Of a DNA stretch of 64,000 nt, positions 26,104-60,742 are shown piece after piece. The notes under the pieces were generated by a model. That model saw only the letters and a program-made list of their open reading frames with translations. It searched no databases and had not been told where the DNA came from. The position numbers and the translations under genes are program-made. Location: positions 1,312,925-1,376,924 of the forward strand of contig CAVOFR010000007.1 in the NCBI GenBank assembly GCA_963695075.1, given 5' to 3'. Each line of letters begins with the position of its first letter. The first letter of the stretch is position 1. The DNA comes from an uncultured Acidimicrobiales bacterium (GTDB taxonomy: Bacteria > Actinomycetota > Acidimicrobiia > Acidimicrobiales > CAWCAL01).

Positions 26104-26144
26104 TTCGGGCCACGAATGGGGCGACCTGGCGAGACCGTCCTAGG

Positions 26145-26163
26145 ATCTGACGACCCGTCAGAT
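26145..26163. promoter_or_regulatory. Palindromic operator, copy 1 (ATCTGACG-ACC-CGTCAGAT)
   Basis: Perfect 8-bp arms. Overlaps -10-like TAGGAT (26141-26146). Ends 23 nt before ATG 26187. Confidence 0.85.
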
Positions 26164-28602: not shown

Positions 28603-29201
28603 CCGACGTCATCATCGGCGACGGAGTCCCCGACGACATCGCCGCGCTGATCGACCAACCGCAGTACGAGGTCACGGCGACCTTCCCGGTCGAGCTGGGC
28701 TACGGCTTCAACACGCTGGCCGCCACCCGGAACGGGAATCCGTTGTTCTGGGACGAGGCGGTCGCCAGCGACCTCACCGACGGGCTCACCCTTCCGCCTT
28801 CGACCCTTTCCCTGTGGATGCGACCGCACTACTGGGAACCCGGTGCCGAGGGCGAGCAGGTCGCCCTGAAGGTCCACTTCGATCTGAAGGAACGGTTCGA
28901 CCTGCCCGAGGCGGTGATGACCGACAACACGCTGATCTTCCACGAACCGGTCCGCCCCGGCGACGTCATCAGCCATCACCAGGTCCTGCGTTCGGTGAGC
29001 GGCCCGAAGACCACCAAGCTGGGCGCCGGGCGCTTCTGGGTGATCGACATCGAGTACCAGAACCAGGACGGTGCGCTGGTGGGTGTCGAGTCGTACACCG
29101 GATTCGGCTATCGCCGCACCGAGGCCGAAGCGGCGGAGGCCGACCAGGACGGGACCGAGGCCGAAGCGGCGGAGGCCGACCAGGAGAGGACCGAGGCATG
29201 A
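28599..29201 (+). CDS. MaoC/hot-dog dehydratase-like subunit (probably the non-catalytic partner) with a repetitive acidic tail
   Basis: NPLFWDE, FHEPVRPGD. No D-x4-H motif seen. ATGA coupling to the next MaoC gene. Confidence 0.78.
   Translation: MTDVIIGDGVPDDIAALIDQPQYEVTATFPVELGYGFNTLAATRNGNPLFWDEAVASDLTDGLTLPPSTLSLWMRPHYWEPGAEGEQVALKVHFDLKERFDLPEAVMTDNTLIFHEPVRPGDVISHHQVLRSVSGPKTTKLGAGRFWVIDIEYQNQDGALVGVESYTGFGYRRTEAEAAEADQDGTEAEAAEADQERTEA
29118..29197 (+). repeat. In-frame 36-bp tandem repeat, about 2.2 copies (TEAEAAEADQDG / TEAEAAEADQER / TEA)
   Basis: accgaggccgaagcggcggaggccgaccaggacggg at 29118, near-identical copy at 29154, partial copy at 29190. Confidence 0.9.
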
Positions 29202-33395: not shown

Positions 33396-33464
33396 CGTGA
33401 TGTAAGCGTCGCGCGCGGCCCATCGAGTTCCCGGGACCGACGGGTTGGACCGGGCCGACCCCGA

Positions 33465-33483
33465 ATCTGACGGTCCGTCAGAT
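33465..33483. promoter_or_regulatory. Palindromic operator, copy 2 (ATCTGACGG-T-CCGTCAGAT)
   Basis: Perfect 9-bp arms. Ends 20 nt before GTG 33504. -10-like TACTGT at 33490-33495. Lies in a divergent region. Confidence 0.85.
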
Positions 33484-38326: not shown

Positions 38327-38398
38327 CCGGCTGCTCCGGACCGGTCGGAGTCCGGCCCCCGACCGATGGGCCGCGCCGATGATCGGAGCGTCTACCGT

Positions 38399-38417
38399 AT
38401 GTGACGACCCGTCAGAT
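38399..38417. promoter_or_regulatory. Palindromic operator, copy 3 (ATGTGACG-ACC-CGTCAGAT)
   Basis: One mismatch to consensus. -10-like TACCGT at 38393-38398. Ends 22 nt before GTG 38440 of the LLM-TetR operon. Confidence 0.8.
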
Positions 38418-38439
38418 CCCGCATCGGGTCGGGAGGACC

Positions 38440-39321
38440 GTGAAGTTCACGAATGCACTCATCGGCGCGCGGCCGGAGCACTATCTCGAGCTCGCTCGGG
38501 CGTCGGAGGCTGCAGGCTTCGACTCGGTGACGCTCTCGGACCACGTCTTTTCGCCCGGGACGGTCGAGTCGGCCTACCCGTACACGCCGGACGGCAAGCC
38601 GAGGTTGCTGGCTGAGGAGGACTGGCTCGATCCGTGGGTCACCATCGGAGCGATGGCCGCGGTCACGACGACCCTGCGGTTCATGACCAACGTGTACATC
38701 CTGCCGTTGCGCAACCCCTTCGTGGTGGCCAAGGCCGTCTCGACCGCGGCGGTGCTGTCGAACGACCGGTTGTCGCTCGGTGTCGGGGCCGGATGGATGC
38801 GCGAGGAGTTCGATCAGCTCGAGCAGCCGTTCTCGGGCCGCGGCAAGCGCATGAACGAGATGATCGATGTGCTCAGGACGCTGTGGTCCGGTGGCATGGT
38901 CGAGTACCACGGTGAGATCTACGACTTCGATCCCCTCGAGATGCGACCAGTCCCATCGCGGCCCGTTCCCATCATCATCGGCGGCCATTCGGACGCTGCG
39001 CTGGCACGGGCGGCACGGAGGGGCGACGGTTGGATCGGCGTCGAGTACTCGGTCGATGATCTCCTCGCTCACTGCGGGCGGCTGGGCGAGATGAGAGCCG
39101 ACGCCGGTCGAGCCGATGAGCCCTTCGAGATCTACGCTTCGCCGCTGGCCGCTCCGACGTCGGATCTTCTCGGAACCCTGGCCGACGCCGGCGTCACGTC
39201 GGTCCTCACATCGCCCACCATGGCGATGGCGCCCGATCTGGACCCCGCCGACCTGGACGGGACGAAGGAGGTCATCGCCAAGTACGGCGAGCTCGTGATC
39301 CAGCCGGGTGGCTTCGGGTGA
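38440..39321 (+). CDS. LLM-class (probably F420-dependent) oxidoreductase
   Basis: AEAAGFDS-like SEAAGFDSVTLSDHV, WLDPW, LPLRNPF, LGVGAGWMREEF, PIIIGG, RRGDGW. SD GGGAGG. Confidence 0.88.
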   Translation: MKFTNALIGARPEHYLELARASEAAGFDSVTLSDHVFSPGTVESAYPYTPDGKPRLLAEEDWLDPWVTIGAMAAVTTTLRFMTNVYILPLRNPFVVAKAVSTAAVLSNDRLSLGVGAGWMREEFDQLEQPFSGRGKRMNEMIDVLRTLWSGGMVEYHGEIYDFDPLEMRPVPSRPVPIIIGGHSDAALARAARRGDGWIGVEYSVDDLLAHCGRLGEMRADAGRADEPFEIYASPLAAPTSDLLGTLADAGVTSVLTSPTMAMAPDLDPADLDGTKEVIAKYGELVIQPGGFG

Positions 39322-39989
39322 CCGACGCGGTCGAGGCCGAGGCGGGGCCCCGGGCAGCCGACGGTCGGGTGCCCGGTCGTCGGGGCCGGGCCACGCGCAC
39401 CAAGCTGCTCGAACAGACCAGAGCGATGCTCCGGACGACCTCGTACCGCGACCTCAAGGTTGTGGACATCGCACGAGAGGCGGGGACCTCACCCGCCACC
39501 TTCTACCAGTACTTCCCCGATATCGAGGCCGCCATTCTCGTCCTGGCCGAGGACATGGCCACCGACGGCGTCCGGCGCTTCAGTGATCTCGTCCTCGAGC
39601 AGCCCTGGCGGGGTCGGAACGGATACGAGACCGCACAGAACCTGGTCACCGGCTTCGTCGAGTTCTGGTCCGATCACGCCGATGTACTGCGGGTCGTCGA
39701 GCTGGTCACCGAGGAAGGCGACGGCCGTTTCCGTCAGATCAGGACGCGCATGCTCAACGGTCTCACGGTCGCTCTGGCCGACGTGATCGAGATCGAGCAG
39801 CGAGCCGGTCGTCACCCCGAGCGCCTCGACCCCGCGGCGACGGCCGGAGTACTCGTGGCCATGCTGGCCAACGTCTCGGCCCGTCGCTACGGCTTCGAGT
39901 TCTGGGGCATCCGGACCGAGGACATGGAGTTCTCCATGGCCCGGGTGGTGTTCTCGGCGGTGACCGGTCAGCGCCCGCCCAAGGACTGA
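39318..39989 (+). CDS. TetR/AcrR family transcriptional regulator (candidate binder of the TGACG-N3-CGTCA operator)
   Basis: RGRATRTKLL...LKVVDIAREAGTSPATFYQYF HTH. GTGA overlap with the LLM gene. Confidence 0.9.
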   Translation: MTDAVEAEAGPRAADGRVPGRRGRATRTKLLEQTRAMLRTTSYRDLKVVDIAREAGTSPATFYQYFPDIEAAILVLAEDMATDGVRRFSDLVLEQPWRGRNGYETAQNLVTGFVEFWSDHADVLRVVELVTEEGDGRFRQIRTRMLNGLTVALADVIEIEQRAGRHPERLDPAATAGVLVAMLANVSARRYGFEFWGIRTEDMEFSMARVVFSAVTGQRPPKD

Positions 39990-45874: not shown

Positions 45875-45913
45875 CGTTGGTGACTTCGCGTTCGGACGGA
45901 CGCCACGGTTAGC

Positions 45914-45932
45914 ATCTGACGGTCCGTCAGAA
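45914..45932. promoter_or_regulatory. Palindromic operator, copy 5 (ATCTGACGG-T-CCGTCAGAA)
   Basis: One terminal mismatch. Overlaps -10-like TAGCAT (45910-45915). Ends 46 nt before ATG 45979. Confidence 0.82.
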
Positions 45933-45978
45933 GTGGTTCGTCGCACGCACGGATCGCCACATCGGTAGGGAGTTGTGC

Positions 45979-46890: not shown

Positions 46891-48183
46891 TTGACCGAGC
46901 TCAGAGAGCGTTCGGTCGCTGCGCTCCTGAGCGAGTGCCTGATCGACCTCGGCGTCATCGGTGTCTGGGGTGGGACCCTTCCCGGCCTGGTGCACCGGGG
47001 CCGTCACGCCGACGACCTCGATCGGCTCTTCGCGGATGCCGAGGGTCGGCTCGGCCCCGGTCCCGGAGCGGCGCTGGTGGCCGACGGCCGCACGCTGCAC
47101 ATCTCGACCAAACCCGGCGGTGACCGGTATCGCTTCACCGTGCTCGAGGTCGGCGAGCTACCCGAGGCCGTCGCCCTCTGGCACATGCACGGGTTTCCGG
47201 CCACCTACGAGATCGAGCTGGGTCTGGATCTGGAGGCGCCGGCACCCGCTGAACTGGGCCCGGTGCCCATGGGGGCGGACCGCACGGTCCCCGTGTTGGA
47301 TACCAGCCTGGCCGACGAGGACGTCGTGATCGTGGCCGGGCCCGGCGTGGTCCGTTCGAACGCGATCGCGTCCCTCGAGACCACAGCGGCTCGCGCCGCG
47401 GCCGGCGTGCTCAACACCTGGGGAGCAAAGGGGGTGTTCCGCTGGGACGATCCCCGCCACCACGGCACGTTCGGACTCCAGGCTCGCGACCTCGAGCTCA
47501 GCGGAGTGACCGAGGCCGGCATGGTCATCGCCACCGGCATCGACCCACTGGAGCTGCCACCCGGGGGACTCGGTGACGCTCTGGTGCTCGAGGTTCCGCC
47601 CCGACAGCTCACCGCCCTGGTGCACCATTGGCCGGATCCCACCCGGGCCATCCCCTCGCCGCCGCCGCTCCATCAGAACCTGTCGTTGGCCTTGGCACCG
47701 CTCTACGGCTCCGAAGCGGTGCCGCTGACTCCGCCGAGGGCAGCGGCCGACCTGGCCGAGACCTGTCCTGTCGGTGGCGTCGTCGTTGCCGATCCGGGAG
47801 AAGCGGGTCTCTGGGTGGCCCGCACCTTCCCGACCCGTGCACCCGAGTCCGTCCTGGTACCGGCCACCGTCGCGCACGGCTTCGCCGCCGCAGCGTCCTA
47901 CGTCGGCCACCGGCTGGGGCGCAAGGCCCTGGGTGTGACGAGTGCGCCGGTCGACGACGTCACGCCCCGGGTGCTCGAGCTGGCCCGAGCCGAGCGAGCG
48001 GACCTGGCCCTCGTCGTCTGGGACGAGGCGGCGGAGCCACTCGCGACCGCCGGCGATCATCCGGTCGCACTCGACGAGCTCTGGCGGACAACCGGGGTCC
48101 GGGTGCTTTCGGTTCCGGTCGATCTGGATCAGCTCACCGTGCTGATCGACGTCGCCGGACCTATCACGGCCTTTGCCGGCTAG
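46891..48183 (+). CDS. Degenerate thiamine-diphosphate-enzyme-like protein
   Basis: Central region VIVAGPGV...VLNTWGAKGVFRWDDPRHHGTFG...VIATGID resembles the TPP-enzyme middle domain. No GDG-x24-27-NN motif seen. TTG directly follows the SDR stop. Confidence 0.55.
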   Translation: MTELRERSVAALLSECLIDLGVIGVWGGTLPGLVHRGRHADDLDRLFADAEGRLGPGPGAALVADGRTLHISTKPGGDRYRFTVLEVGELPEAVALWHMHGFPATYEIELGLDLEAPAPAELGPVPMGADRTVPVLDTSLADEDVVIVAGPGVVRSNAIASLETTAARAAAGVLNTWGAKGVFRWDDPRHHGTFGLQARDLELSGVTEAGMVIATGIDPLELPPGGLGDALVLEVPPRQLTALVHHWPDPTRAIPSPPPLHQNLSLALAPLYGSEAVPLTPPRAAADLAETCPVGGVVVADPGEAGLWVARTFPTRAPESVLVPATVAHGFAAAASYVGHRLGRKALGVTSAPVDDVTPRVLELARAERADLALVVWDEAAEPLATAGDHPVALDELWRTTGVRVLSVPVDLDQLTVLIDVAGPITAFAG

Positions 48184-48205
48184 AAACTAGAACCTGTTAT
48201 AGTTT
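48184..48205. promoter_or_regulatory. KstR-type operator (TnnAACnnGTTnnA)
   Basis: AAAC-TAGAACCTGTTATA-GTTT. The core at 48188-48201 matches the published KstR consensus. Lies upstream of an operon encoding a KstR-like TetR. Confidence 0.8.
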
Positions 48206-48274
48206 TCTGGTCGGCGCCACCTGACGCCGACTCGTCCACCAGAACTTCACCCCCGACCTCACCCAGGGAGTCCG

Positions 48275-49408
48275 ATGGAATTCGGCATCTTCGCCCAGCT
48301 GTTCGTCCCCGACCGCGAACGTGAGGCCGATCCACTGGCCGAGCACAAGCGGATAATGGCCAATGTCGAGATCTCGAGGGTGGCCGACCGGGCCGGTTTC
48401 AAGTACGTCTGGATCCCCGAGCACCACTTCCTCGATCAGTACAGCCACATGCCGGGGCCCGAGGTCTTCGGTAGCTACGTGGCGGCTCAGACCGAGCAGA
48501 TCCACGTCGGTGCTGCGATCCTCAACGTGAACCCCAAGGTCAACCATCCCGCTCGAATCGCGGAGAAGGTGGCCCTGATGGACCATCTCTTCGAAGGCCG
48601 ATTCGAGTTCGGGACCGGACGCGGCTCGTCGACCACGGAGGTCTTCGGGTTCGGCATCGAGAACCTCGAGATCACCAAGGAGATGTACGACGAGGCCATC
48701 GCTGAGATCCCCAAGATGTGGGAGCCCGGCGAGTACCCCGGGTTCGAGGGTCGGTTCTTCACGATGCCGCCCCGCATCGTGTTGCCGAAGCCCTACAGCG
48801 ATCCCCACCCGCCCATCTGGGTGGCAGCCGGCTCGCCTCCGACGTTCACCAAGGCGGCGAAGCTGGGCATGGGGACGTTCTGCTTCACCCACGGCAAGCC
48901 CGGATCGATCGAGCCGCTGGTCAAGGCCTACAAGGACAGCATCGGCGACGCCCAGCCGGTCGGCAAGTACATCAACGACAACATCGCCTGCGTGACGAAC
49001 ATGGTCTGCTGCGAAGACCGCAACGAGGCATTCGAGCTCGCGTCAGGCTCGGGGATGAACTACTACAGCGGCCTGCAGATGCACTGGCTCGACAACATCC
49101 CGAAGCCCGATGGCGTTCCCGAGTGGCCCGATCACTGGCCCGAGCCCGATCCCGAGGCGGTCGAGAAGGCCTCCGAGCTCGGCCTCATCGCGGTCGGTGA
49201 TCCCGACGACTGCGCCAACGCCATCCGAAAGTGGGAATCGATCGGTGCGGATCAGCTGATCTTCTCGCCCACCACCAACTTCCTGCCGGTCGACGTCATC
49301 GCCCGGTCGATGGAGCTCTTCGGCAGAGAGGTCATCCCGCGGTTCGACACCGATCCGGTGCATCGAACCACGCGCCAGCGCGAGGCGGCGGCCACGGCCG
49401 CCGGGTGA
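48275..49408 (+). CDS. LLM-class flavin-dependent oxidoreductase/monooxygenase
   Basis: EFGIF, WIPEHHF, HPARIAEKVALMDHL, FGTGRG, PKPYSDPHPPIWVAA. Confidence 0.9.
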   Translation: MEFGIFAQLFVPDREREADPLAEHKRIMANVEISRVADRAGFKYVWIPEHHFLDQYSHMPGPEVFGSYVAAQTEQIHVGAAILNVNPKVNHPARIAEKVALMDHLFEGRFEFGTGRGSSTTEVFGFGIENLEITKEMYDEAIAEIPKMWEPGEYPGFEGRFFTMPPRIVLPKPYSDPHPPIWVAAGSPPTFTKAAKLGMGTFCFTHGKPGSIEPLVKAYKDSIGDAQPVGKYINDNIACVTNMVCCEDRNEAFELASGSGMNYYSGLQMHWLDNIPKPDGVPEWPDHWPEPDPEAVEKASELGLIAVGDPDDCANAIRKWESIGADQLIFSPTTNFLPVDVIARSMELFGREVIPRFDTDPVHRTTRQREAAATAAG

Positions 49409-49427
49409 TCTCCGGCGTGGAGTCGGT

Positions 49428-50009
49428 ATGACCGTCACCGCACTGACCGAGAGCCAGGAGGACCGTCGTCAACGCATTCTGCGCGCCGCCCGGAGACTCG
49501 CGGCGGAGGGAGGGTACGAGGCGGTCCAGATGCGCCGGGTGGCGGCCGATGCCGACGTGGCCCTGGGCACGCTCTACCGGTACTTCCCGTCGAAGGAGCA
49601 GCTCCTGGTCTCGGTCAATCTACGTACGATGCGGGCCATGGCCGATCGTGTGGCCGAGGATCGCCCGGCCGGGGACTCATCGGCCGCTCGCGTGCTGGCC
49701 GTGTTGAGCGACGCCACGCAGAGGCTCCAGGAGGAACCGCTGCTCGCGGCAGCGACCGTGAGCGCTCTGGTCTCGGGCCATCCCGAGGTTGCTCCCGTCG
49801 TGGCCGACGTCCGTGAGTTCAGCGGCGACGTGCTGCGCACAGCCATCGACGACGATGACGTCGGCGACGAGATCGTGGCCCTCCTCGAGCACATCTGGCT
49901 TTCCGCTCAGGTCGGCTGGATCGGTGGTATCACTGGACCGGAGGGCGTGATGCAGACCATGGAGCAGGCCGTGCTCCACTTGCTTCCATCAAAGGGCGGG
50001 AAACCATGA
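49428..50009 (+). CDS. kstR: KstR-like TetR regulator
   Basis: GGYEAVQMRRVAADADVALGTLYRYFPSK closely matches the recalled mycobacterial KstR HTH, with similarity also in the ligand domain (PLL, IWLS, AVxxLL). A cognate box lies upstream of the operon. Confidence 0.65.
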   Translation: MTVTALTESQEDRRQRILRAARRLAAEGGYEAVQMRRVAADADVALGTLYRYFPSKEQLLVSVNLRTMRAMADRVAEDRPAGDSSAARVLAVLSDATQRLQEEPLLAAATVSALVSGHPEVAPVVADVREFSGDVLRTAIDDDDVGDEIVALLEHIWLSAQVGWIGGITGPEGVMQTMEQAVLHLLPSKGGKP

Positions 50010-50902
50010 CGACGACATTGAGGGGCGTTCCCACGCCCGATACCGAGGTCACCCCCGAGTTGCCCATGGGTCGCAGGATCGAGTTGCTCGGACGAGGCGA
50101 GTCCTTCGTGCGCGAGATACCCGGCCCCGAGGGGGCCCCGACCGTGATCCTCCTCCACGGCTGGATAGCCAGCGGCGGCCTCAACTGGTTCCGGGTGTTC
50201 GAACCCCTGTCGAAGCACTTCCACGTCGTCGCCCCCGACATGAGGGGCCACGGCCGCGGACTCCGTGACCGGCATCGGTTCACCCTCAACGACTGCGCCG
50301 ACGACGTGGCAGCCCTCTGTGATCAACTGGGCATCGAGTCCGCCATCCTGTGCGGCTATTCGATGGGTGGCCCGGTCGCGCTGCTGACCTGGAAGCGGCA
50401 CCGCCACCTCGTCGACGGAATGATGCTGATGGCGACGTCGTACAACGTCGTTCCCGGCATCCGGGATCAGCTCATCTTCGTCGGTCTCATGGCCGCGTTG
50501 GCCGGATCGACAAGGGTCGGTCAGAAGCTCACCCATCTCCCGTTCCGGACTCTGCAACGGCTCCAGGCCCCGTCCGAGGGTCCGATCCGGCCCGACTCGT
50601 TTCGGCGCTGGGCTGCCGCCGAAGCCGCTCGTCATGACATCAGGCTCCTGATCGAGGCCGGCCAGGCCCTCGGCACGTTCAACGCCAAGAAGTGGGTGGG
50701 CCAGGTCGACGTGCCCACGACGGTGTTGATCACCACCAGGGACCGGGGCATCCACCCCACGGCCCAGTTCCATCTCGCCGTCGAGATCCCCGACGCCCAG
50801 ATCGAGATGATCGACGAGGGCCATTCGGCGCCGGCTCTGAGCACGTTCGCCCAGCCGGTCGTCGACGCGTGCCTCGGGGTGGCTGCCCGCATCGACACCT
50901 GA
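50006..50902 (+). CDS. Alpha/beta-fold hydrolase
   Basis: LLHGW, DMRGHG, nucleophile elbow GYSMGG, C-terminal EGH. Confidence 0.88.
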   Translation: MTTTLRGVPTPDTEVTPELPMGRRIELLGRGESFVREIPGPEGAPTVILLHGWIASGGLNWFRVFEPLSKHFHVVAPDMRGHGRGLRDRHRFTLNDCADDVAALCDQLGIESAILCGYSMGGPVALLTWKRHRHLVDGMMLMATSYNVVPGIRDQLIFVGLMAALAGSTRVGQKLTHLPFRTLQRLQAPSEGPIRPDSFRRWAAAEAARHDIRLLIEAGQALGTFNAKKWVGQVDVPTTVLITTRDRGIHPTAQFHLAVEIPDAQIEMIDEGHSAPALSTFAQPVVDACLGVAARIDT

Positions 50903-52755: not shown

Positions 52756-52883
52756 CCCGCCATTCTCATCTTCCTCCCGGGCCGGTGCGAACGGAATCCC
52801 TGGGCAAGGTCACCCACTAAGGGCGGCCCGACTCCTGCCGATGGTCGAGGGACCCTCCATACCCGGACGAGTTGGAGCCGACC

Positions 52884-54071
52884 ATGACCCTGACCCTCCC
52901 CGCCGCAACCGAGGTCCGACACCGCTGGGTCGGGGTCGGGAGCTCGATCCATGCCGATGCCCGCTCCGCCGGCGCAGCCGCGGCCATCGAGGCTCGACAG
53001 GGTACCGAGGCGAGGCTCGCCGTCGTCTTCGCCACCCGGCACTACGACCTCGAGGCCTTGCTCGCCGGTATCACCACCGAGCTTCCCGATGTGCCGCTCG
53101 TCGGATGCTCCACCGCCGGCGAGATCGCGACGGATGGCCCCGGTGATGCGAGCGTGGTCGTCCTCGCCCTCGGTGGCGACGGATTCTCGATCGCGACGGG
53201 ACGTGCGCTGACGGGCGAACACGGGCTGCGTGGGGCGGGAGCAATCGCGGCGCGCTGCGTCGACGATGTCGAGCAGCGCGCCCACACGGTGCTACTCCTC
53301 CTCACCGACGGCCTTGCCGGTGACCAGCAGGAGATCGTGCGGGGTGCGTACGGCGAAGTCGGCGCCGCGGTGCCACTCGTCGGCGGCTGCGCCGGCGATG
53401 ACCAGCAGATGGTCCGGACGTTCCAGTTCCACGACGGCGAGGTGTTCACCGAGGCAGTCGTGGCTGCGGCGATCTCGTCGGACGCCCCGATCGGGATCGG
53501 CATGCGCCACGGGTGGTGCCCCGTGGGTGATGCCATGCTCGTGACGAGCAGCGACGGCACCGTCGTCCATACGATCGGCGACCGTCCGGCTCTCGACGCG
53601 TATCTCGACCACCTCGATGCTCCCGAAGAGGTGCGAATTGATCCAGTGGCCTTCACCCACTTCGCCGCGACCCGTCCGCTCGGCCTGAAGCGCCGCGACC
53701 GCGAGGAGGTGCGCTACATCGCCGGTGCCGATTTCGAGGCACGCAGCCTCAGCTGTATCGCCGAGGTCCCACAGGGTGGGCTCGTGTGGATCATGGAGGG
53801 TGACGATGCTTCGGTGCTCGCGGCGACCGACGGCGCGTGCGCCGACGCGGTGGAGCCGCTCGCCGGGGAGGCACCACTCGCGCTGCTCGCCTTCGATTGC
53901 ATCGCCCGCAAGGGCGTACTGGGCCCCGGCGTCGAGGATGAGGTGCGCCGTATCGCGGCGGTCGCCGACGGTGCGCCGGTAGCGGGCTTCTACACCTATG
54001 GCGAGATCGCCCGGACCCGCGGCTCGGGTGGCTTCCACAATCAGACCCTCGTGGTGCTTGCGCTCGGCTGA
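52884..54071 (+). CDS. Stand-alone FIST-domain protein (FIST_N + FIST_C; NosP-like)
   Basis: VGCSTAGEI, LLLTDGL, PLVGGCAGDD, HGWCPVG, FDCIARK, GFYTYGEIA, FHNQT. Alternative start 52872. Confidence 0.88.
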   Translation: MTLTLPAATEVRHRWVGVGSSIHADARSAGAAAAIEARQGTEARLAVVFATRHYDLEALLAGITTELPDVPLVGCSTAGEIATDGPGDASVVVLALGGDGFSIATGRALTGEHGLRGAGAIAARCVDDVEQRAHTVLLLLTDGLAGDQQEIVRGAYGEVGAAVPLVGGCAGDDQQMVRTFQFHDGEVFTEAVVAAAISSDAPIGIGMRHGWCPVGDAMLVTSSDGTVVHTIGDRPALDAYLDHLDAPEEVRIDPVAFTHFAATRPLGLKRRDREEVRYIAGADFEARSLSCIAEVPQGGLVWIMEGDDASVLAATDGACADAVEPLAGEAPLALLAFDCIARKGVLGPGVEDEVRRIAAVADGAPVAGFYTYGEIARTRGSGGFHNQTLVVLALG

Positions 54072-56353
54072 TGACCGCGCCGTGGACTGTCCACCAGCTG
54101 GCCGAGTTCCTCACCCTCTTCGACTCGGGGGACGGTGCATCCTTCGCGGAGGCTTCCGTCGATCGCGTCGCAGAGGCGCTCGACGCGGAGTTCGCGGCGT
54201 TCGTGCTCGACGGCTCGGTCGAGCACTGCATCGGGGTCCGGCGTGCCGACGTTGCGGGGGCCGTCCGAGGTGCTCTGGCTCCGGGCCGCATCGAGGTCGA
54301 TCTGCCGGGGATCGGACGCTGCGAGACGCTCACCGTCCCGGTCGACGAGTCCGACCGGCTCATCGTCGCAAGGGCGCAGGACCCGATTTCCCCCGAGGAG
54401 GAATCGTACGTGCGAGCGTGCGGCCGGGCGCTCACGCTGACGCTGCGTATGACGCGTGCGCTCGACTCCGAACGCGCCGCGCGCAACGCGGCGGAGGCCC
54501 ATGCCGCCGAGAACACGGCACTGCTCACTTCGCTTCGCGAGCGACAATCGCTGAACGACCGCCTCTTCAAGATCCAGCAGTCGATCTCCCACCGGGCGAA
54601 GACGGGAGACGTGCTGGATGCCATCACCGCCGGCGCCGGCGAGCTGCTGGACGCCTCGATATCAGCGCTGCGCCTCGTCGGCGACGGTCCGACGAGCACC
54701 CTGCTCGTCTCCTCGGTCGGCATCGAGGCTCTTGTGGTCGAGGGTGAGGACGGAGAGGACCCCACGAGGGAGATCGGTGAGGCGGCACTCATCCAGGGAA
54801 CGCTCGTGATCCGGTCCGTCGTCGTCGATGACCGCAGCGGCGAGACGGCCGCGATGGCGGCACCGGTCCACCGGGGCGGTGAGATCGTCGGCAGTCTCGT
54901 GGTGGCGGCAGGAAACCCGGACCGCTCGTTCAGTGCCGTCGAGGAGGAGGTCCTGCTCACCTTCGCCGAGCACGCATCTCTGGCGCTCAACGACGCGAGC
55001 GCGGTGGATGCCATCCGTTCCGAGCTCGTCTCCGCGAAGCACGACGCGACGCACGACGACCTCACCGGGCTCCCGAACCGGCCCGCGGCGATCCGGCTCC
55101 TCGGACGACTGCTCGATCCGTCGCGGGACTCCCCCGACTCGGTCACCGTGTTCTTCCTCGATCTCGACCGCTTCAAGGCGGTGAATGACGTGCTCGGTCA
55201 TGCATTCGGAGATGAGGTGCTTCGTGAGGTCGCGGCTCGACTGCGGCGGGTCGTTCGCGATGACGACCTCGTGGCTCGTCTGGCGGGTGACGAGTTCGTC
55301 GTCATCTCGGAGGGCATCGACGGCGATCAGGCCGAGATCCTCGCCGATCGGCTCAGCGTCGCGGTGGCGGAACCGCTCTCGCACGCCACACGGGAGACGG
55401 TGCTCACCGCGAGCATCGGCCTTGCCAGCGCTCGTTCGGGGGACGACCCGGAGACAGTGCTCTCGAACGCGGATGTCGCCATGTACCGTGCCAAGCAGCA
55501 GGGTCGGGACCGGGTGGAGACGTTCGACCAGGAGATGCGGCGCCAGATCCTGGACCGCATCAACGGCGAGCGCGAGCTGCGCGCGGCGCTCGAGCAGGGG
55601 CAGTTGTGCGTCTACTACCAGCCCTCGGTGAGGGTGCGCGGAGGGCGCACCGATGGTCTGGAGGCGCTCGTCCGCTGGCAGCATCCTGGGCGTGGCCTGC
55701 TCGGGCCGGACGCCTTCATCGCTCTCGCCGAGGACTCCGGCCACATCCGGGCCGTGGACACCTTCGTGCTCACCGAAGCATGCCGTCAGGTGGCCGAATG
55801 GCGGGACGCTCACCCGACACTGCGGGACCTCTACGTGACGGTCAACGTGTCGGCTCGCCAGTTCACCGACCCGAACCTGGTCGACACCGTGAGGCGTGTG
55901 CTCGAGGCGACGGGCCTTCCGGCGCGCTGCCTGTGGCTCGAGATCACCGAGACGGTCGTGATGGGGGAGACCGAGACCACCCTCGAGATACTGCGGGACC
56001 TGCGGGACCTCGGTGTGCATCTCATGGTCGATGACTTCGGGACGGGCTACTCGTCGCTCTCCTACCTCAAGCGGTTTCCGGTGGATGCCCTCAAGATCGA
56101 TCGGTCGTTCGTCGACGGCCTCGGAGTCGACCCCGACGACGAGGCGATCGTGACGGCAATCGTCGGCCTCGCCCAGGCACTCGATCTCGGACTGGTCGGA
56201 GAGGGGGTCGAGACGGAGCTTCAGCAGGCGGAGCTGCTGCGGCTCGGAGTCGACCATGCCCAGGGCTATCTCTACGCCCGTCCCATGTCGGCGCCCGATG
56301 TGCTCGCCCACATGCTCGCCGGCGATGGGTCCCTCGTCTCCCGTTCGTCCTAG
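54071..56353 (+). CDS. GAF-GGDEF-EAL diguanylate cyclase/phosphodiesterase
   Basis: HDDLTGLPNR, DLDRFKAVND, I-site RDDD, AGDEF, EAL, DDFGTGYSSLSYL, EGVE, QGY. TGATG overlap with the FIST gene. Confidence 0.93.
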   Translation: MTAPWTVHQLAEFLTLFDSGDGASFAEASVDRVAEALDAEFAAFVLDGSVEHCIGVRRADVAGAVRGALAPGRIEVDLPGIGRCETLTVPVDESDRLIVARAQDPISPEEESYVRACGRALTLTLRMTRALDSERAARNAAEAHAAENTALLTSLRERQSLNDRLFKIQQSISHRAKTGDVLDAITAGAGELLDASISALRLVGDGPTSTLLVSSVGIEALVVEGEDGEDPTREIGEAALIQGTLVIRSVVVDDRSGETAAMAAPVHRGGEIVGSLVVAAGNPDRSFSAVEEEVLLTFAEHASLALNDASAVDAIRSELVSAKHDATHDDLTGLPNRPAAIRLLGRLLDPSRDSPDSVTVFFLDLDRFKAVNDVLGHAFGDEVLREVAARLRRVVRDDDLVARLAGDEFVVISEGIDGDQAEILADRLSVAVAEPLSHATRETVLTASIGLASARSGDDPETVLSNADVAMYRAKQQGRDRVETFDQEMRRQILDRINGERELRAALEQGQLCVYYQPSVRVRGGRTDGLEALVRWQHPGRGLLGPDAFIALAEDSGHIRAVDTFVLTEACRQVAEWRDAHPTLRDLYVTVNVSARQFTDPNLVDTVRRVLEATGLPARCLWLEITETVVMGETETTLEILRDLRDLGVHLMVDDFGTGYSSLSYLKRFPVDALKIDRSFVDGLGVDPDDEAIVTAIVGLAQALDLGLVGEGVETELQQAELLRLGVDHAQGYLYARPMSAPDVLAHMLAGDGSLVSRSS

Positions 56354-56386: not shown

Positions 56387-56452
56387 CCGGCTCTGGCCGT
56401 TCTGCTATTTTCGACTACAGTGCAGCGACTTAATTCTCCGGGGGGACATCGA

Positions 56453-57898
56453 ATGACCAAGCGGCTCATCACGCTTAGCGCGGCGCTGGCTCTGCTCGCG
56501 GCGGCATGCGGCAGCCAGATAGACACGGTGGCCGACGTTGGAACCGACGCCGGCGCCACGGATACGGCTGGCCCCACCTCCGCCGGGACCGGTACATCCG
56601 ATACCGCTGGCACCGGAACGGGTGCCGAGACCGATGGCGACGGACCCCCGGCCGAAGTCGACCTGATGGACGGCTGGTTCGGCGACATGGAGGTCCCCTG
56701 CGGACCCACCCCGGAGGGGATGACCCTGACCGGCGGCCAAGATCTCGGCGTCACCGCCGACGCGGTCGAACTCGCCATCATCGCCGACGTCGAGGGTCCC
56801 CGACCCGGCGTCAACAAGGAGGCCCTCGACGGTACCAACGCGTTCACGGATTGGTGCAACAGCCTGGGTGGCGTCAACGGCCGCCAGCTCAAGCTGACCC
56901 ACCTCGACTCGAAGATCCTGGAGTTCGCTCCCCGCGCCGAGGAGGCCTGCTCGTTCGCCTTCGCCACCGTCGGTACCGCGGTGGTAATCGACGACGTCGG
57001 CGCCCAGACCCTGGTCGACTGCGACATGGTCAGCGTTCCGGCCTACACGGTCAGCGACAAGTTCGCGCTGTCGGACCGGATGGTGCAGTCCAACCCCAAT
57101 CCACCCGACACGTACCTGGTGCTGTCGCTGCGCAGGGTGGCCGAGGAGAACCCCGAGGCGGTCAAGCACGCGGCGATCCTCACGGCGGGTCTCCCCTCGC
57201 TCCAAATGCAGCGGGACCGGCAGCAGGCGGGCGCCGAGGCCCTGGGTTGGGAGTTCGTCTACACGGCCGAGCATGCGATCACCGAGCAGAACTGGGGCGC
57301 GTTCGTGGCCGACATGAAGGCGAAAGGGGTCGAGGCCGTCATACACGTGGCCGAGCCGTCCGAGACCAACAACATGCTCCGCGAGATGGTGAAGCAGGGG
57401 ATCGACCTCCAGGAGATGATCTTCGTCTTCAACCCGAACTATTACGACGCCGAATACCTCGAGCTGGCCGGCGATCTGGCGGCCGGCCAGATCCTCGACA
57501 TGAGCTACGTGCCCTTCGAGGAGGCCGAGGAGAATCCGGCCGCGGACGAGTTCGTCGAGATCCTCCAGGAATTCGGCGGGTTCGAGCCCTCGCTCATCGC
57601 CGTCCAGGCGTTCTCGTCTGCGCTCCTCTTCGCCGATGCCCTCCAGGCCATCGGTGACGACGTCACCCGGGAGGCCCTGCTCACGCAGCTCGAGACGGAG
57701 GACGACTGGACCGCGGGTGGCATCACCGGTTCGCAGGACCCCGGCGCCAACACCCGGTCGCCATGTGCAATCAGCCTCCGGATCAACGACACTGGTACCG
57801 GCTACGAGCGGGCGTTCCCCGACGAGGGGTTCGACTGCGATCCGGCCAACGTCGTCGCCGTCCCGGGCGACTTCAGCGGGGCATCAGCAGGGGGCTGA
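56453..57898 (+). CDS. Liv-type (HAAT family) ABC substrate-binding lipoprotein
   Basis: Lipobox LAAAC, Thr/Gly linker, GVTADAVEL, WCNSLGGVNGRQLKL, FADALQAIG. Confidence 0.85.
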   Translation: MTKRLITLSAALALLAAACGSQIDTVADVGTDAGATDTAGPTSAGTGTSDTAGTGTGAETDGDGPPAEVDLMDGWFGDMEVPCGPTPEGMTLTGGQDLGVTADAVELAIIADVEGPRPGVNKEALDGTNAFTDWCNSLGGVNGRQLKLTHLDSKILEFAPRAEEACSFAFATVGTAVVIDDVGAQTLVDCDMVSVPAYTVSDKFALSDRMVQSNPNPPDTYLVLSLRRVAEENPEAVKHAAILTAGLPSLQMQRDRQQAGAEALGWEFVYTAEHAITEQNWGAFVADMKAKGVEAVIHVAEPSETNNMLREMVKQGIDLQEMIFVFNPNYYDAEYLELAGDLAAGQILDMSYVPFEEAEENPAADEFVEILQEFGGFEPSLIAVQAFSSALLFADALQAIGDDVTREALLTQLETEDDWTAGGITGSQDPGANTRSPCAISLRINDTGTGYERAFPDEGFDCDPANVVAVPGDFSGASAGG

Positions 57899-57928
57899 CC
57901 CGCACGACGAGGGGGAACGACAGAGCGA

Positions 57929-59975
57929 ATGGACACCGTGGCCCAGTTCCTGGTCTCGGGCATCGTGCTCGGCGCCATCTATGCCGTTGCCGCCTCGGGC
58001 CTGGTCGTGACATACACGACCTCGGGCATCTTCAACTTCGCCCACGGCGCGTTCGGCATGCTGGGCGCCTACCTCTACTGGCAGATGGTGAAGGGCTGGG
58101 GCTGGCCGGTTCCGGTGGCCCTCGTCGTGCTGCTCGGCGTCCTGGCTCCGCTGTTCGGAGCGGTCGTCGAGCGGACGATCATGCGCGGCCTCCAGGGTGT
58201 GTCGGAGGTCACGCGACTGGTGGTCTCCATCAGCTTGCTCGTCGGTCTGCTCTCGCTGGCCCAGGTGATCTGGACCAACGCGGTGGGTCGTACCGGAGCG
58301 CAGTTCTTCCAGGGCGAACGGTTCACGGTGGTCGGCTATGGCGTCAGCTACCACGAGGCCGTCACGATCGTCGTCGCCCTGCTGATCGCCCTCGGGCTCC
58401 GGTTGCTGCTCTATCGCGTCAGGCTGGGCATCGCCATGCGCTCGGTGGTCGATGATCGCGGGCTGGCCAGCCTCAACGGCGTCCGGCCCGACCGCACGGC
58501 CATGGCCAGCTGGGCCCTGGGCACGATGCTGGCCGCCGTGGCCGGCATCCTCGTCGCCGGGGGATCGACGCTCGACCACCTCCCGCTCACCCTTCTCGTC
58601 ATCAACGCGTACGCCGCCGCGATCTTCGGGCGGCTGAAGAGCCTGCCACTCACGTTCGTCGGCGCTCTGGTTCTGGGCCTCCTCGACTCGTTCATCCTCG
58701 TGTACTCCGACGACATCCTCGACGCGTTCGGTTGGGATGCACCCTGGCTCGCCACGACGTTCCGATCGGTCGTGCCGGTCCTCGTGCTGTTCGCCGTGCT
58801 GATGGTGATCCGCCCCTCCCCGGTCAAGACCCTCGGTGTGACGCAGCTGCGGGAGATGATCCCCAAGCCCAGCATCCAGAAGGTCCTCCAGTGGGGGGCG
58901 GTCATGATCCTCACGGCGACCGCCGTCGGGCTGTGGCTCGACGGGCTCGACTCGCGCTGGGCACCTCAGGACCTCGACGACCTGATCAAGGGCGTCGGGT
59001 TCGCCATCATCATGCTGTCGTTGGTCCCGCTCACCGGCTACGGGGGACAGATCTCTCTCGCCCAGTGGACCTTCGCGGGGATCGGCGGTGTGAGCATGGC
59101 CTACTGGGGCGGTGACAACCAGATCCTCGCCGTCCTCGCCGGCGTCGGTATCAGCACGTTGGTTGGGGCACTGGTGGCCCTGCCCGCCATCCGCCTCCGC
59201 GGGATCTACCTCGCACTGGCCACGATGGCCTTCGCCACGTTCATGGAGCTGTTCGTGTTCCAGGAGCTGGAGCTGCTCGCCTCGGGCAGCGCCCGGGTCG
59301 AAGGCCTGGCCATACCGCTCGTTTCATTGGAGAGCAGGTCGGCCACGCTGGTCTTCCTCTCGATCGTGTTCGTCCTGATGGCTCTGTTCGTGGTCCGTCC
59401 TGCGCCGTAGCCGTTTCGGACGCCGTCTCCAGGCCATGAAGGACAGCGAAGCGGCATCGGCCACGATCGGCATGAGCCTGGTGAAGACCAAGCTCGTGGT
59501 GTTCTCGCTCTCGGCCGGCATGGCCGGGCTGGGCGGCGCACTCTACTTCTCGAGCATCAAGACCGTCAGTCTCGGCGACGTATCCATGGTCAACAGCCTG
59601 GTGCTGACCCTCATGGCGGTGGTCGGCGGCATCGCGTCGGTCGCGGGTGTCCTGTTCGGCGGGATGATGCTCGGCGTGTTCGACATCATCAGCACCCATG
59701 TCCCGGCGCTCACCAACCTGCTCCTGGTCGCCCCGGGTCTGGTCGGTATCAGTATCGGCCGCAACCCCAACGGGGCCGTGGCCGAGATCGCCCGCAGCAT
59801 CGGTGAGGTCGGGGACGATCCGGACTCGGCCGGCGACAGGGTCGAGGATCTGGATCTCACGATGGTGGGAGTCGACCGCCCGATCACCACCGAGGACGTC
59901 GAGACCCTGGATCGGACCCTCGACCTGGCCGCCGAGGCCGATCGCGCGGTCTCGGGAGCGGGAGTGGGCCCATGA
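57929..59975 (+). pseudogene. Fused LivH-LivM permease interrupted by a +1 insertion near 59396 (frameshifted gene or sequencing error)
   Basis: The 57929 frame stops at 59410. Removing one C from gtg gtc C gtc ctg restores ...LFVVVLRRSRFGRRLQAMKDSEAAS..., the LivM motif, giving one 681-aa ORF ending at 59975. Confidence 0.85.
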
Positions 59976-60742
59976 CCGTCGCCGACGCCGGTCTCGAGCC
60001 GCTGCTGCCCGACGTGGTCGAGGGCCTCGAACTGCGGGGGATCACCGTGCGCTTCGGAGGTCACACCGCGGTCGACTCGGTCGATCTCGAAGCCCCGACC
60101 GGTCGGCTGACCGGGCTGATCGGTCCCAACGGGGCGGGTAAGACGACCATCTTCAACGCCATCTGCGGGATGCAGCCGGTGGTGGCCGGGTCCGTGTACT
60201 TCAACGGTGCGGAGATCACCGGACTGCCGACGCACCGGCGGGCCCGGACGGGGATCTCGAGGACCTTCCAGCGGCTCGAGGTGTTCGGTTCGCTCACGGC
60301 GGCCGAGAACGTCCAGGTCGCGGTCGAGATGCGGATGGCATGGCACCGGGACAAGGCCGATCCCCAGCAGGAGGTGGCGAAACTGCTCGAGCGGGTCGGA
60401 GCCGCGGATCTGGCCGATGACCGCGCCGACGCGCTCCCCACCGGTCAGGCCCGGCTGATCGAGCTGGCGCGCGCGCTCGCCGGTCGACCGCAGCTGCTCC
60501 TTCTCGACGAACCGGCGTCGGGCCTCACCGAGGCCGAGACCGAGACCTTCGGCCGCCTCCTGGTCGACCTGGTCGACGAGGGCATCGGCGTCCTGCTCGT
60601 CGAGCATGATGTGTCCCTGGTGATGGAGGTGTGCCAGTACCTGTACGTCCTCGACTTCGGTGCGGTGCTCGCACAGGGATCGGTCGACGAGATCCAGCGC
60701 AACGCGGCCGTGCAGCAGGCCTACCTCGGGGCGAGCACATGA
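59972..60742 (+). CDS. livG: Liv-type ABC ATP-binding subunit (LivG-like)
   Basis: GPNGAGKTT, SRTFQRL, LLLDEPASGL, LVEHD, AVQQAYLG. Confidence 0.88.
   Translation: MTVADAGLEPLLPDVVEGLELRGITVRFGGHTAVDSVDLEAPTGRLTGLIGPNGAGKTTIFNAICGMQPVVAGSVYFNGAEITGLPTHRRARTGISRTFQRLEVFGSLTAAENVQVAVEMRMAWHRDKADPQQEVAKLLERVGAADLADDRADALPTGQARLIELARALAGRPQLLLLDEPASGLTEAETETFGRLLVDLVDEGIGVLLVEHDVSLVMEVCQYLYVLDFGAVLAQGSVDEIQRNAAVQQAYLGAST

What the first reader, a model, noticed from the sequence alone, without database searches (positions are those of the whole stretch)
48184..50902. KstR homolog with a canonical KstR box heading its own operon
Seen: TAGAACCTGTTATA inside a 22-bp near-palindrome, 69 nt before the LLM oxidoreductase - TetR - alpha/beta hydrolase run. 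Known: mycobacterial and rhodococcal KstR binds TnnAACnnGTTnnA and controls cholesterol catabolism. The TetR here closely resembles KstR as I recall its sequence. Inference: KstR-type regulation extends to this lineage with different local targets, an LLM enzyme and a hydrolase not known to me as steroid genes. These are candidate steroid/lipid enzymes.
Basis: partly seen in the sequence, partly recalled or inferred. Interest (0 to 1): 0.62.

Follow-up and report, generated by a model that had tools for sequence, protein, structure and literature searches.

The report
KstR-family repressor operon in Acidimicrobiia
An uncultured Acidimicrobiia bacterium carries the phylum-wide relative of the mycobacterial cholesterol repressor KstR together with its typical DNA box, but here it appears to switch a small set of oxidoreductase and hydrolase genes in a genome that lacks the classical steroid ring-opening enzymes, so it is a sound but fairly ordinary regulon prediction.

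Summary
TAGAACCTGTTATA (48188-48201) lies in a 22-bp near-palindrome, 69 nt before the ATG of an LLM oxidoreductase - TetR - alpha/beta-hydrolase operon.

The TetR is this genome's only KstR-like protein:
- Mtb KstR is its best match by sequence and by predicted fold (TM 0.82-0.93).
- The DNA-binding domain is 64% identical, but the ligand domain only 18%.
- It scores 138 bits against the 280-bit KstR cut-off and branches outside the Mycobacteriales/Nocardioides clade.

The box is invariant in three species of the genus, while its flanks have diverged. A matrix built from other genomes' boxes ranks it fourth in the 4.6-Mb genome. The other top sites are also at promoters:
- a KshA-like Rieske oxygenase
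- CrtO/CrtI-like flavoproteins
- an SDR-ACAD operon
- a second hydrolase

Orthologues of the LLM, the KshA-like gene and the CrtO-like gene carry the box in other Acidimicrobiales families. HsaC and HsaD are absent, and KstD is only distantly represented.

Verdict: a KstR-family autorepressor with a small, conserved regulon that is not canonical cholesterol catabolism. The effector is unknown. It is a new member of a known kind, of moderate interest.

The parts
48184..48205 (.). KstR-type operator. It is a 22-bp near-palindrome AAACTAGAACC|TGTTATAGTTT with the 14-bp core TAGAACCTGTTATA at 48188-48201.
   Evidence: PWM score 22.5 bits, rank 4 in the genome. Invariant block in three congeneric genomes.
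48198..48203 (+). Putative -10 hexamer TATAGT, formed by the right arm of the operator (inference).
   Evidence: Read. TATAGT is conserved in G002 and G001 and would explain the C-to-A departure from the GTTCTA consensus arm. The consensus promoter scan found no full -35/-10 pair, so this is inferred only.
48275..49408 (+). Luciferase-like (LLM class) flavin- or F420-dependent oxidoreductase, 377 aa, first gene of the operon.
   Evidence: Pfam Bac_luciferase 156.6 bits. It passes no NCBIfam cut-off, and PDB gives only generic LLM hits. Orthologues in G010, G004, G020 and G003 carry a box upstream.
49428..50009 (+). KstR-family TetR repressor, 193 aa (TetR_N + TetR_C_20).
50006..50902 (+). Alpha/beta-fold hydrolase, 298 aa, with a G-Y-S-M-G nucleophile elbow. 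Its start overlaps the TetR stop (ATGA).
   Evidence: Pfam Abhydrolase_1 96 bits. No specific NCBIfam or PDB relative. A homologue (54-55% identity) follows the TetR in L011 and L014 as well.
46891..48183 (+). Context only. An upstream ORF of 430 aa in which only a TPP_enzyme_M central domain is recognisable. It is conserved directly upstream of the KstR-like gene in Microthrixaceae-like relatives.
   Evidence: no NCBIfam family.
45904..45932 (.). Context only. An operator of a different TetR regulon (ATCTGACGGTCCGTCAGA type), 41 nt before the SDR gene at 45973. The SDR and TPP_M-like genes just upstream therefore seem to belong to another regulon.
   Evidence: family D6 (4 copies: 26135, 33455, 38389, 45904). 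The TetR_C_38 regulator lies at 39318-39989.

Best explanation
The gene at 49428-50009 encodes the Acidimicrobiia orthologue of the actinobacterial KstR family of TetR repressors. As a dimer it binds the palindrome at 48184-48205, which overlaps the likely -10 element of the promoter of its own three-gene operon (LLM oxidoreductase, repressor, alpha/beta hydrolase). It keeps this operon off until a small-molecule effector releases it; by analogy the effector is probably a lipid-derived acyl-CoA thioester. The same protein controls a small dispersed regulon of about five to eight promoters. The members are a KshA-like Rieske oxygenase, CrtO/CrtI-like flavoproteins, an SDR-acyl-CoA-dehydrogenase operon, an ACAD pair and a second hydrolase. 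Shown here: family membership, operator conservation, the genome-wide site pattern, and conservation of the box before orthologous LLM, KshA-like and CrtO-like genes in other Acidimicrobiales. Inferred only: actual binding, repression rather than activation, the position of the promoter, and the identity of the effector and of the substrate. The substrate is not the canonical 9,10-seco steroid route, because HsaC and HsaD are missing.
For: Regulator. KstR is the only close family (137.8 bits v 52.8 for the next), and this is the only such protein in the genome. The helix-turn-helix is almost identical to that of Mtb KstR (GGYEAVQMR-VA--ADVA-GTLYRYFPSK; 64% identity in the DNA-binding domain). 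The AF2 model (pLDDT 93) superposes on KstR-DNA and KstR-ligand structures at TM 0.82-0.93, and the next fold matches are acyl-CoA-binding FadR proteins. In the tree, the KstR-like family is separated from the genome's other TetRs. Operator. The extended consensus derived from other genomes (ACTAGAACGCGTTCTAGT) nearly equals the mycobacterial sites listed in PMC1995591. 57 of 83 homologous loci have a near-perfect box within 300 nt upstream of the TetR. Regulon. The top five PWM hits are all at promoters, and there is an excess over controls. KshA-like orthologues in G001, G002, G019 and G010 carry 25-31-bit boxes about 25-35 nt upstream, whereas the 39% paralogues carry none. LLM orthologues in G010, G004, G020 and G003 have boxes at loci away from the regulator. 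CrtO-like orthologues in G011 have boxes. The box before the ACAD pair scores 28 bits in G001. Operon structure: 19-nt and -4-nt gene spacings.
Against: The protein is below the curated KstR cut-off, and its ligand domain is only 18% identical to Mtb KstR. The effector therefore cannot be transferred, and even a CoA-thioester effector is only an analogy. No consensus -35/-10 pair was detected. The box lies only 1-5 nt after the stop of the upstream gene, so read-through from the SDR/TPP_M promoter could also feed the operon. Regulon membership is not stable: two boxes present in G002 have no counterpart here, and the CrtO-like target is absent from the two congeners. My gene calls are a rough GC3-based approximation, so promoter assignments for the weaker sites are uncertain.
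Confidence: 0.78

Rival explanations
1. It is a true functional KstR. It senses 3-oxo-cholestenoyl-CoA-type metabolites and controls cholesterol or steroid catabolism in this organism, and the LLM and hydrolase are steroid enzymes of that pathway.
For: The best sequence and fold matches are Mtb KstR, including ligand-bound forms. The operator is the same. A KshA-family Rieske oxygenase (PDB KshA E 1e-39, Pfam KshA_C 112 bits) is a conserved boxed target, as kshA is in M. tuberculosis. JGI names some homologues 'cholesterol catabolism regulator'. The window and genome are rich in ACAD pairs, MaoC hydratases, CoA transferases and FadD ligases.
Against: The protein scores 138 bits against a 280-bit equivalog cut-off. 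The ligand domain is 18% identical. No HsaC homologue was found at E<=1e-8, although the same search finds HsaC at 522 bits in a Nocardioides genome. HsaD scores 69 v 400 bits and KstD 254 v 789 bits. There is no fadE34 synteny. The protein lies outside the Mycobacteriales + Nocardioides clade. Homologues with the box also exist in Streptomyces, which has no steroid-ring pathway (the absence of that pathway is my own knowledge).
Confidence: 0.08
2. The box is the operator of a different regulator. The KstR-like TetR binds some other sequence, and the co-location is coincidental.
For: The genome has many TetR genes, at least 12 with weak KstR-model hits. A MarR gene flanks the C7:1669152 site. 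A second TetR operator family operates only 2.3 kb upstream.
Against: Box and KstR-like gene co-occur in cis across classes of Actinomycetota (57 of 83 loci). The recognition helix is nearly identical to that of the protein shown by EMSA and crystallography to bind this sequence. No other TetR in the genome resembles KstR.
Confidence: 0.05
3. The palindrome is a chance match or a structural element, such as the terminator of the upstream gene, rather than a protein-binding site.
For: The degenerate motif alone appears in 11% of shuffled windows. The site lies directly after a stop codon.
Against: It is AT-rich, has no G+C stem or T tract, and was not called as a terminator. It is invariant across three species with diverged flanks. 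It has a high PWM rank and shares its sequence with other promoters.
Confidence: 0.01

Closest known systems
KstR (Rv3574 / MSMEG_6042 / Ro04482), TetR repressor of the cholesterol and lipid catabolic regulon of Mycobacterium and Rhodococcus
   Same: The domain architecture is the same (TetR_N + TetR_C_20). The helix-turn-helix is nearly identical. The operator is the same, both the core TnnAACnnGTTnnA and the extended ACTAGAAC..GTTCTAGT consensus. Both are autoregulated, both have a dispersed multi-promoter regulon, and both have a KshA-family oxygenase and LLM oxidoreductases among the boxed genes. The predicted fold superposes at TM 0.82-0.93.
   Different: Overall identity is 34-35%, and the ligand-binding domain is 18% identical. 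The protein is below the NCBIfam equivalog cut-off. There is no divergent fadE34; the regulator sits inside an LLM-TetR-hydrolase operon. The regulon is far smaller (about 5-8 sites v 16-31). The genome has no hsaC or hsaD and only a remote kstD relative. The effector is unknown.
KstR-like homologues of Streptomyces and Kitasatospora (the 'possible orthologue' SCO2319 of Kendall et al. 2007)
   Same: They belong to the same family and are about 44-47% identical to the window protein. A TAGAACAAGTTTCA-type box lies upstream. They occur in organisms without a classical steroid-ring pathway.
   Different: They group with the Mycobacteriales/Nocardioides proteins in the class Actinomycetes clade (98/95 support), not with the window protein. 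They share no synteny with the window locus. Their function is also uncharacterised, as far as the papers I read show.
Acyl-CoA-responsive TetR repressors FadR (Thermus thermophilus 3ANG/3ANP, Bacillus subtilis 3WHC)
   Same: They are the next-best fold matches after KstR and 3BJB. They repress lipid beta-oxidation genes and are released by acyl-CoA.
   Different: Identity is 17-20%, TM is 0.6-0.77, and the operators are different.
KstR2 (Rv3557c) and the TetR_C_38 / TCTGACG-N3-CGTCAGA regulon present in the same window
   Same: This is a second TetR regulon of CoA-dependent catabolic genes lying next to the KstR-type unit, as KstR and KstR2 regulons lie side by side in mycobacteria.
   Different: It has a different C-terminal domain family and a different operator (D6). 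It does not share sites with the unit studied here.

Membership tests
KstR (NCBIfam NF033703 equivalog; Rv3574 orthologues) | TetR_N DNA-binding domain plus a TetR_C_20 ligand domain | tested here: met
   Pfam TetR_N 64.6 bits and TetR_C_20 32.5 bits, both over their cut-offs.
KstR (NCBIfam NF033703 equivalog; Rv3574 orthologues) | Score over the curated equivalog cut-off (280 bits) | tested here: not met
   137.8 bits over the full model length 3-184/185. No protein in the genome passes the cut-off.
KstR (NCBIfam NF033703 equivalog; Rv3574 orthologues) | Palindromic operator TnnAACnnGTTnnA in its own promoter | tested here: met
   The box lies at 48188-48201 ahead of the operon that contains the regulator. 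It is conserved in congeners and lies directly upstream of the TetR in relatives that lack the LLM gene. Binding itself was not tested.
KstR (NCBIfam NF033703 equivalog; Rv3574 orthologues) | Divergent transcription from a fadE34-type acyl-CoA dehydrogenase (the synteny used by Kendall 2007 to define orthologues) | tested here: not met
   The neighbours are co-directional TPP_M-like, LLM and hydrolase genes. The synteny criterion is quoted.
KstR (NCBIfam NF033703 equivalog; Rv3574 orthologues) | Placement inside the clade of experimentally studied KstR proteins | tested here: not met
   Mycobacteriaceae + Nocardioides + Mycobacteriales MAGs + Streptomycetaceae form a clade (98/95) that excludes the window protein. 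The window protein lies in an unresolved basal Acidimicrobiia grade, but inside the family relative to the genome's other TetRs (85/95).
KstR (NCBIfam NF033703 equivalog; Rv3574 orthologues) | Regulon includes steroid-nucleus genes (kshA, kstD, hsaA-D) | tested here: inconclusive
   A KshA-like gene with a box is present and conserved. HsaC is absent. HsaD is absent. KstD is represented only by a remote relative without a promoter box.
KstR (NCBIfam NF033703 equivalog; Rv3574 orthologues) | Release from DNA by 3-oxo-4-cholestenoyl-CoA-type thioesters | not testable with these tools
   Only indirect data are available. The ligand domain is 18% identical, although the overall fold matches ligand-bound KstR structures.
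KstR-like family in the wide sense (phylum-wide TetR_C_20 orthogroup with the TAGAAC..GTTCTA operator) | A single-copy homologue whose best named relative is KstR, with the operator in cis | tested here: met

The most novel reading that the evidence does not exclude
The conserved Acidimicrobiales core of this regulon is the KshA-family Rieske oxygenase, the LLM oxidoreductase, the CrtO-like flavoprotein and the alpha/beta hydrolases. These may together form a so far undescribed oxygen-dependent route for attacking a sterol-, hopanoid- or carotenoid-like polycyclic or isoprenoid lipid. This route would not pass through the 9,10-seco meta-cleavage steps (HsaC and HsaD are absent). It would be controlled by a KstR-family sensor whose diverged ligand domain recognises a different CoA thioester. 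Earlier notes of this scan claim oxygen-independent steroid-type gene sets elsewhere on the same contig. I did not check those claims. If they are right, this regulon could be the aerobic front end of a mixed pathway.
Probability: 0.2. Interest if true: 0.6.

Novelty: new member of a known kind. Interest (0 to 1): 0.36.

Why it matters
KstR is the master switch of cholesterol use in M. tuberculosis and of sterol bioconversion strains. Three things follow from finding its family, with an unchanged operator, in Acidimicrobiia genomes that lack the classical ring-opening genes. First, it dates the repressor-operator pair to the base of Actinomycetota. Second, it shows that DNA recognition stayed fixed while the ligand domain and the target genes were exchanged. 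Third, it names a short list of uncharacterised enzymes (this LLM family, a KshA-like oxygenase clade, CrtO-like flavoproteins, two hydrolases) that are co-regulated in abundant uncultured soil, water and activated-sludge bacteria. They are therefore reasonable candidates for lipid or sterol transformation. The result is useful for annotation and for choosing enzymes to test. It is not a new principle.

Tried and rejected
- Counting the degenerate motif genome-wide gave 34 hits, mostly inside genes, so it was uninformative. I replaced it with a matrix built from other genomes' boxes.
- My first GC3-based gene caller covered only 77% of the genome and mislabelled many coding hits as intergenic. 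I re-ran it with looser thresholds. It is still approximate.
- A loose pattern search with one mismatch in the congeners G001 and G002 showed no enrichment over the control (59/65 v 68/44). Only the individual high-quality sites were used.
- The consensus promoter and terminator scan of the locus found nothing usable.
- PDB sequence searches gave only generic relatives for the LLM and the hydrolase, and none for the CrtO-like protein.
- The JBC 2016 KstR-ligand paper could not be read. PMC13176608 turned out to deal with KstR2. Ligand-contact residues were therefore not compared.
- I considered whether the second hydrolase with a box (C8:483523-484497) is a paralogue of the operon's hydrolase. 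It is not; similarity is confined to the nucleophile elbow.
- I considered whether the missing HsaC is an assembly gap. In G002 the HsaC-like gene (244 bits, below the cut-off) lies where synteny with this genome ends, and it has no box. A real gene-content difference is more likely than a gap.
Full report
**1. What is at the coordinates**

The window is G000:C7:1312925-1376924 of a 4.65-Mb, 68% G+C assembly. The closest named relatives of its proteins are Microthrixaceae and other Acidimicrobiales.

- TAGAACCTGTTATA occurs once, at 48188-48201.
- It sits inside the near-palindrome AAACTAGAACC|TGTTATAGTTT (48184-48205).
- The palindrome begins 1 nt after the stop of a 430-aa ORF (46891-48183) and ends 69 nt before the ATG at 48275.
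- Three co-directional genes follow: a luciferase-like (LLM) oxidoreductase (48275-49408), a TetR with TetR_N and TetR_C_20 domains (49428-50009), and an alpha/beta hydrolase (50006-50902). The gaps are 19 nt and -4 nt, which fits one operon.

**2. Is the box more than chance?**

The 8-position degenerate motif is weak on its own. It matches once in the window, but 11 of 100 shuffles also give a match. Most of the 34 genome-wide matches lie inside genes. Three independent lines show the site is real.

- *Conservation.* The orthologous locus of a 79%-identical TetR (L009 = G002) has the same gene order and the box GAAACTAGAACGTGTTATAGTTTTG. An alignment of three congeneric species shows a 24-nt block that is invariant except for one spacer base. 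Its flanks are full of substitutions and indels. The only other conserved block is the ribosome-binding site and start codon.
- *Matrix score.* I built an 18-nt weight matrix only from boxes upstream of homologous TetR genes in other genomes. Its consensus is ACTAGAACGCGTTCTAGT. This is almost the extended consensus of the mycobacterial sites tabulated by Kendall et al. 2007, for example ACTAGAACGTGTTCTAATAG before Rv3574 (PMC1995591).
- *Excess over controls.* The window site scores 22.5 bits, fourth in the genome. The genome holds 4 sites at or above 22 bits and 7 at or above 20. The reversed sequence gives 0 and 1, and triplet shuffles give means of 0.2 and 1.1.

**3. The regulator**

- NCBIfam's KstR model is by far the best hit: 137.8 bits at full length, against 52.8 for the next family. 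It is still below the 280-bit equivalog cut-off.
- Mtb KstR chains are the best PDB hits, at E 2e-23.
- The genome has no second KstR-like gene; the next TetR scores 43.5 bits.
- Identity to Mtb KstR is 64% in residues 1-66 and 18% in the rest. The recognition helix differs by one conservative change.
- An AlphaFold2 model (pLDDT 93.1) matches the 17 KstR chains best: TM 0.82-0.93, rmsd 1.6-2.3 Å. These include DNA-bound and CoA-thioester-bound forms. Next come 3BJB and then the acyl-CoA-binding FadR proteins.
- In a maximum-likelihood tree the KstR-like family separates from the genome's other TetRs (85/95).
  - Mycobacterial KstR, Nocardioides, Mycobacteriales MAGs and Streptomycetaceae form one clade (98/95).
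  - The Acidimicrobiia sequences form an unresolved basal grade.
  - The window protein and its congener sit on a long branch.
- My reading is a vertically inherited, phylum-wide orthogroup. The protein is a member of the KstR family in the wide sense. It is not a member of the experimentally defined KstR group.

**4. Locus evolution**

In more distant Microthrixaceae-like relatives (L011, L013, L014, L019) the order is SDR - TPP_M-like - TetR (- hydrolase), without the LLM. There the box lies directly before the TetR. In the window's genus the LLM gene sits between box and TetR.

LLM orthologues elsewhere are boxed at loci away from the regulator:

| Genome | Identity to window LLM | Box score (bits) |
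|---|---|---|
| G010 | 54% | 29.6 |
| G004 | 44% | 22.2 |
| G020 | 40% | 22.1 |
| G003 | 53% | 16.6 |
| G003 | 42% | 18.8 |

. The LLM is therefore an old regulon member that was brought next to the regulator in this genus.

**5. The regulon in this genome**

The top matrix hits are listed below.

| Site | Score (bits) | Flanking genes |
|---|---|---|
| C3:395682 | 26.6 | Between a CrtO-like FAD oxidoreductase (532 aa) and an unknown gene |
| C7:1669152 | 23.9 | Between MarR plus a CrtI-like flavoprotein, and an SDR plus a pimC-like acyl-CoA dehydrogenase |
| C7:1399106 | 23.5 | 34 nt before a Rieske oxygenase (best PDB hits KshA, E 1e-39; Pfam KshA_C 112 bits) |
| Window site | 22.5 | LLM - TetR - hydrolase operon |
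| C8:484430 | 21.0 | Before a second, unrelated alpha/beta hydrolase |
| C7:1568916 | 19.8 | Before a small ORF and a third CrtI-like flavoprotein |
| C1:305515 | 16.0 | Before an ACAD pair; its orthologous site in G001 scores 28.2 |

Conservation supports membership for several targets.

- KshA-like orthologues in G001, G002, G019 and G010 (52-86% identity, three different families) carry 25-31-bit boxes about 25-35 nt upstream. The 34-39% paralogues carry none.
- The CrtO-like orthologues in G011 are boxed (20.5 and 23.8 bits). This gene is missing from both congeners.
- Membership also turns over. Two good boxes in G002 have no counterpart here.

**6. Is this steroid catabolism?**

- HsaD is absent: best match 68.6 bits against a 400-bit cut-off.
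- No HsaC-type extradiol dioxygenase is found at E<=1e-8. The same search finds 522 bits in a Nocardioides genome and 340-357 bits in Mycobacteriales-like MAGs, so the search works.
- The congeners have a sub-threshold HsaC-like gene (244-259 bits). In G002 it lies beyond a synteny break with this genome and carries no box.
- The best KstD relative scores 254 bits against 789 and has no promoter box.
- The classical 9,10-seco route is thus not encoded.
- What remains steroid-like is the conserved KshA-family target, together with the general richness of the region in ACADs, a MaoC-type hydratase, a family III CoA-transferase and FadD ligases.
- In M. tuberculosis, kshA (Rv3526) and the genes Rv0940c, Rv0953c and Rv3520c are boxed too. 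That these three genes are LLM-class is from my own knowledge. The LLM is therefore not an odd target for this family.

**7. Mechanism proposed**

The model is a homodimeric TetR repressor that occludes the promoter.

- The right arm of the operator reads GTTATAGT instead of the consensus GTTCTAGT. This creates TATAGT (48198-48203), a good actinobacterial -10, and it is conserved in all three congeners. The promoter position is an inference; the consensus scan found no -35/-10 pair.
- Release by an acyl-CoA-type ligand is inferred from the family and from the fold neighbours. The diverged ligand domain forbids naming the ligand.
- The SDR and TPP_M-like genes just upstream are preceded by a different palindrome (ATCTGACGGTCCGTCAGA, 45904-45932). 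This is one of four copies in the window. It belongs to the TetR_C_38 regulator at 39318-39989. Two TetR regulons therefore abut here, and read-through into the KstR-type operon is possible.

**8. Comparison and novelty**

The repressor-operator pair is the known KstR kind. The following points are new.

- The lineage is Acidimicrobiia. No paper in the library holds both 'KstR' and 'Acidimicrobiia'.
- The regulon is small and differently composed.
- A conserved LLM / KshA-like / CrtO-like core is documented.
- The pair occurs in a genome without hsaC or hsaD.

Kendall et al. already noted a 'possible orthologue' in Streptomyces. Earlier notes of this scan report KstR-type operators in another Microthrix-like genome. 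I did not check that note. I classify this as a new member of a known kind, of moderate interest.

**9. Limits**

- There are no binding, expression or ligand data.
- Gene calls outside the window are approximate.
- The assembly is 96% complete.
- Ligand-contact residues were not compared.

Noticed in passing
window 26135-26163, 33455-33483, 38389-38417, 45904-45932: Four copies of a different palindrome (ATCTGACG-N3-CGTCAGAT type) lie ahead of ACAD, LLM and SDR genes. It is probably the operator of the TetR_C_38 regulator at 39318-39989. The last copy is 41 nt before the SDR gene, directly upstream of the KstR-type unit.
   Followed up: partly
window 38401-39989: There is a second LLM oxidoreductase - TetR gene pair (306 aa Bac_luciferase followed by a TetR_C_38 regulator). 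It has the same LLM-then-TetR order as in the finding.
   Followed up: no
window 46891-48183: In this 430-aa protein only a TPP_enzyme_M central domain (residues 143-218) is recognisable, and no NCBIfam family matches. It is nevertheless conserved immediately upstream of the KstR-like gene in several Microthrixaceae-like genomes at 41-80% identity.
   Followed up: partly
window 29118-29189: A 36-nt unit (ACCGAGGCCGAAGCGGCGGAGGCCGACCAGGACGGG) is tandemly duplicated at 94% identity. It lies near the 3' end of the FAS1_DH/MaoC-like gene 28599-29201 (D13).
   Followed up: no
window 52872-56353: A FIST-domain protein is followed by a GAF-GGDEF-EAL protein. This looks like a c-di-GMP signalling pair, set between the lipid genes and a branched-chain-type ABC transporter at 56420-60742.
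   Followed up: no
L029-L093 (Streptomyces and Kitasatospora loci), about 150-275 nt upstream of the TetR match: Almost every Streptomyces homologue of the TetR has the same box, cTAATCTAGAACAAGTTTCAGACTTG, upstream. The KstR-type operator is therefore conserved in a genus without a classical steroid-ring pathway. I did not examine the target genes there.
   Followed up: no
G002:C4:347279-348112 (L142 9280-10113): The congeneric genome has an HsaC-like extradiol dioxygenase (244 bits, below the 450-bit cut-off). It lies in a stretch of about 10 kb that has no counterpart in this genome. Synteny ends at own C3:474919, next to a tRNA-like sequence. No KstR-type box is present there.
   Followed up: partly
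G000 C8:555226-556819: A paralogue of the CrtO-like flavoprotein (74-75% identity) is split into two frames with an in-frame TGA. It is probably a pseudogene, or else a sequencing error.
   Followed up: no
G001:C9:75406-76535 (L125, L135): In one congener the orthologous LLM gene is matched in two overlapping pieces (residues 1-196 and 184-377). This indicates a frameshift or an assembly error.
   Followed up: no
G010:C86:5978-7989 (L105, L134): A KshA-family paralogue is immediately followed, with overlapping coordinates on the same strand, by a paralogue of the LLM (52% identity). This hints that the two enzyme families work together. No box is present there.
   Followed up: no
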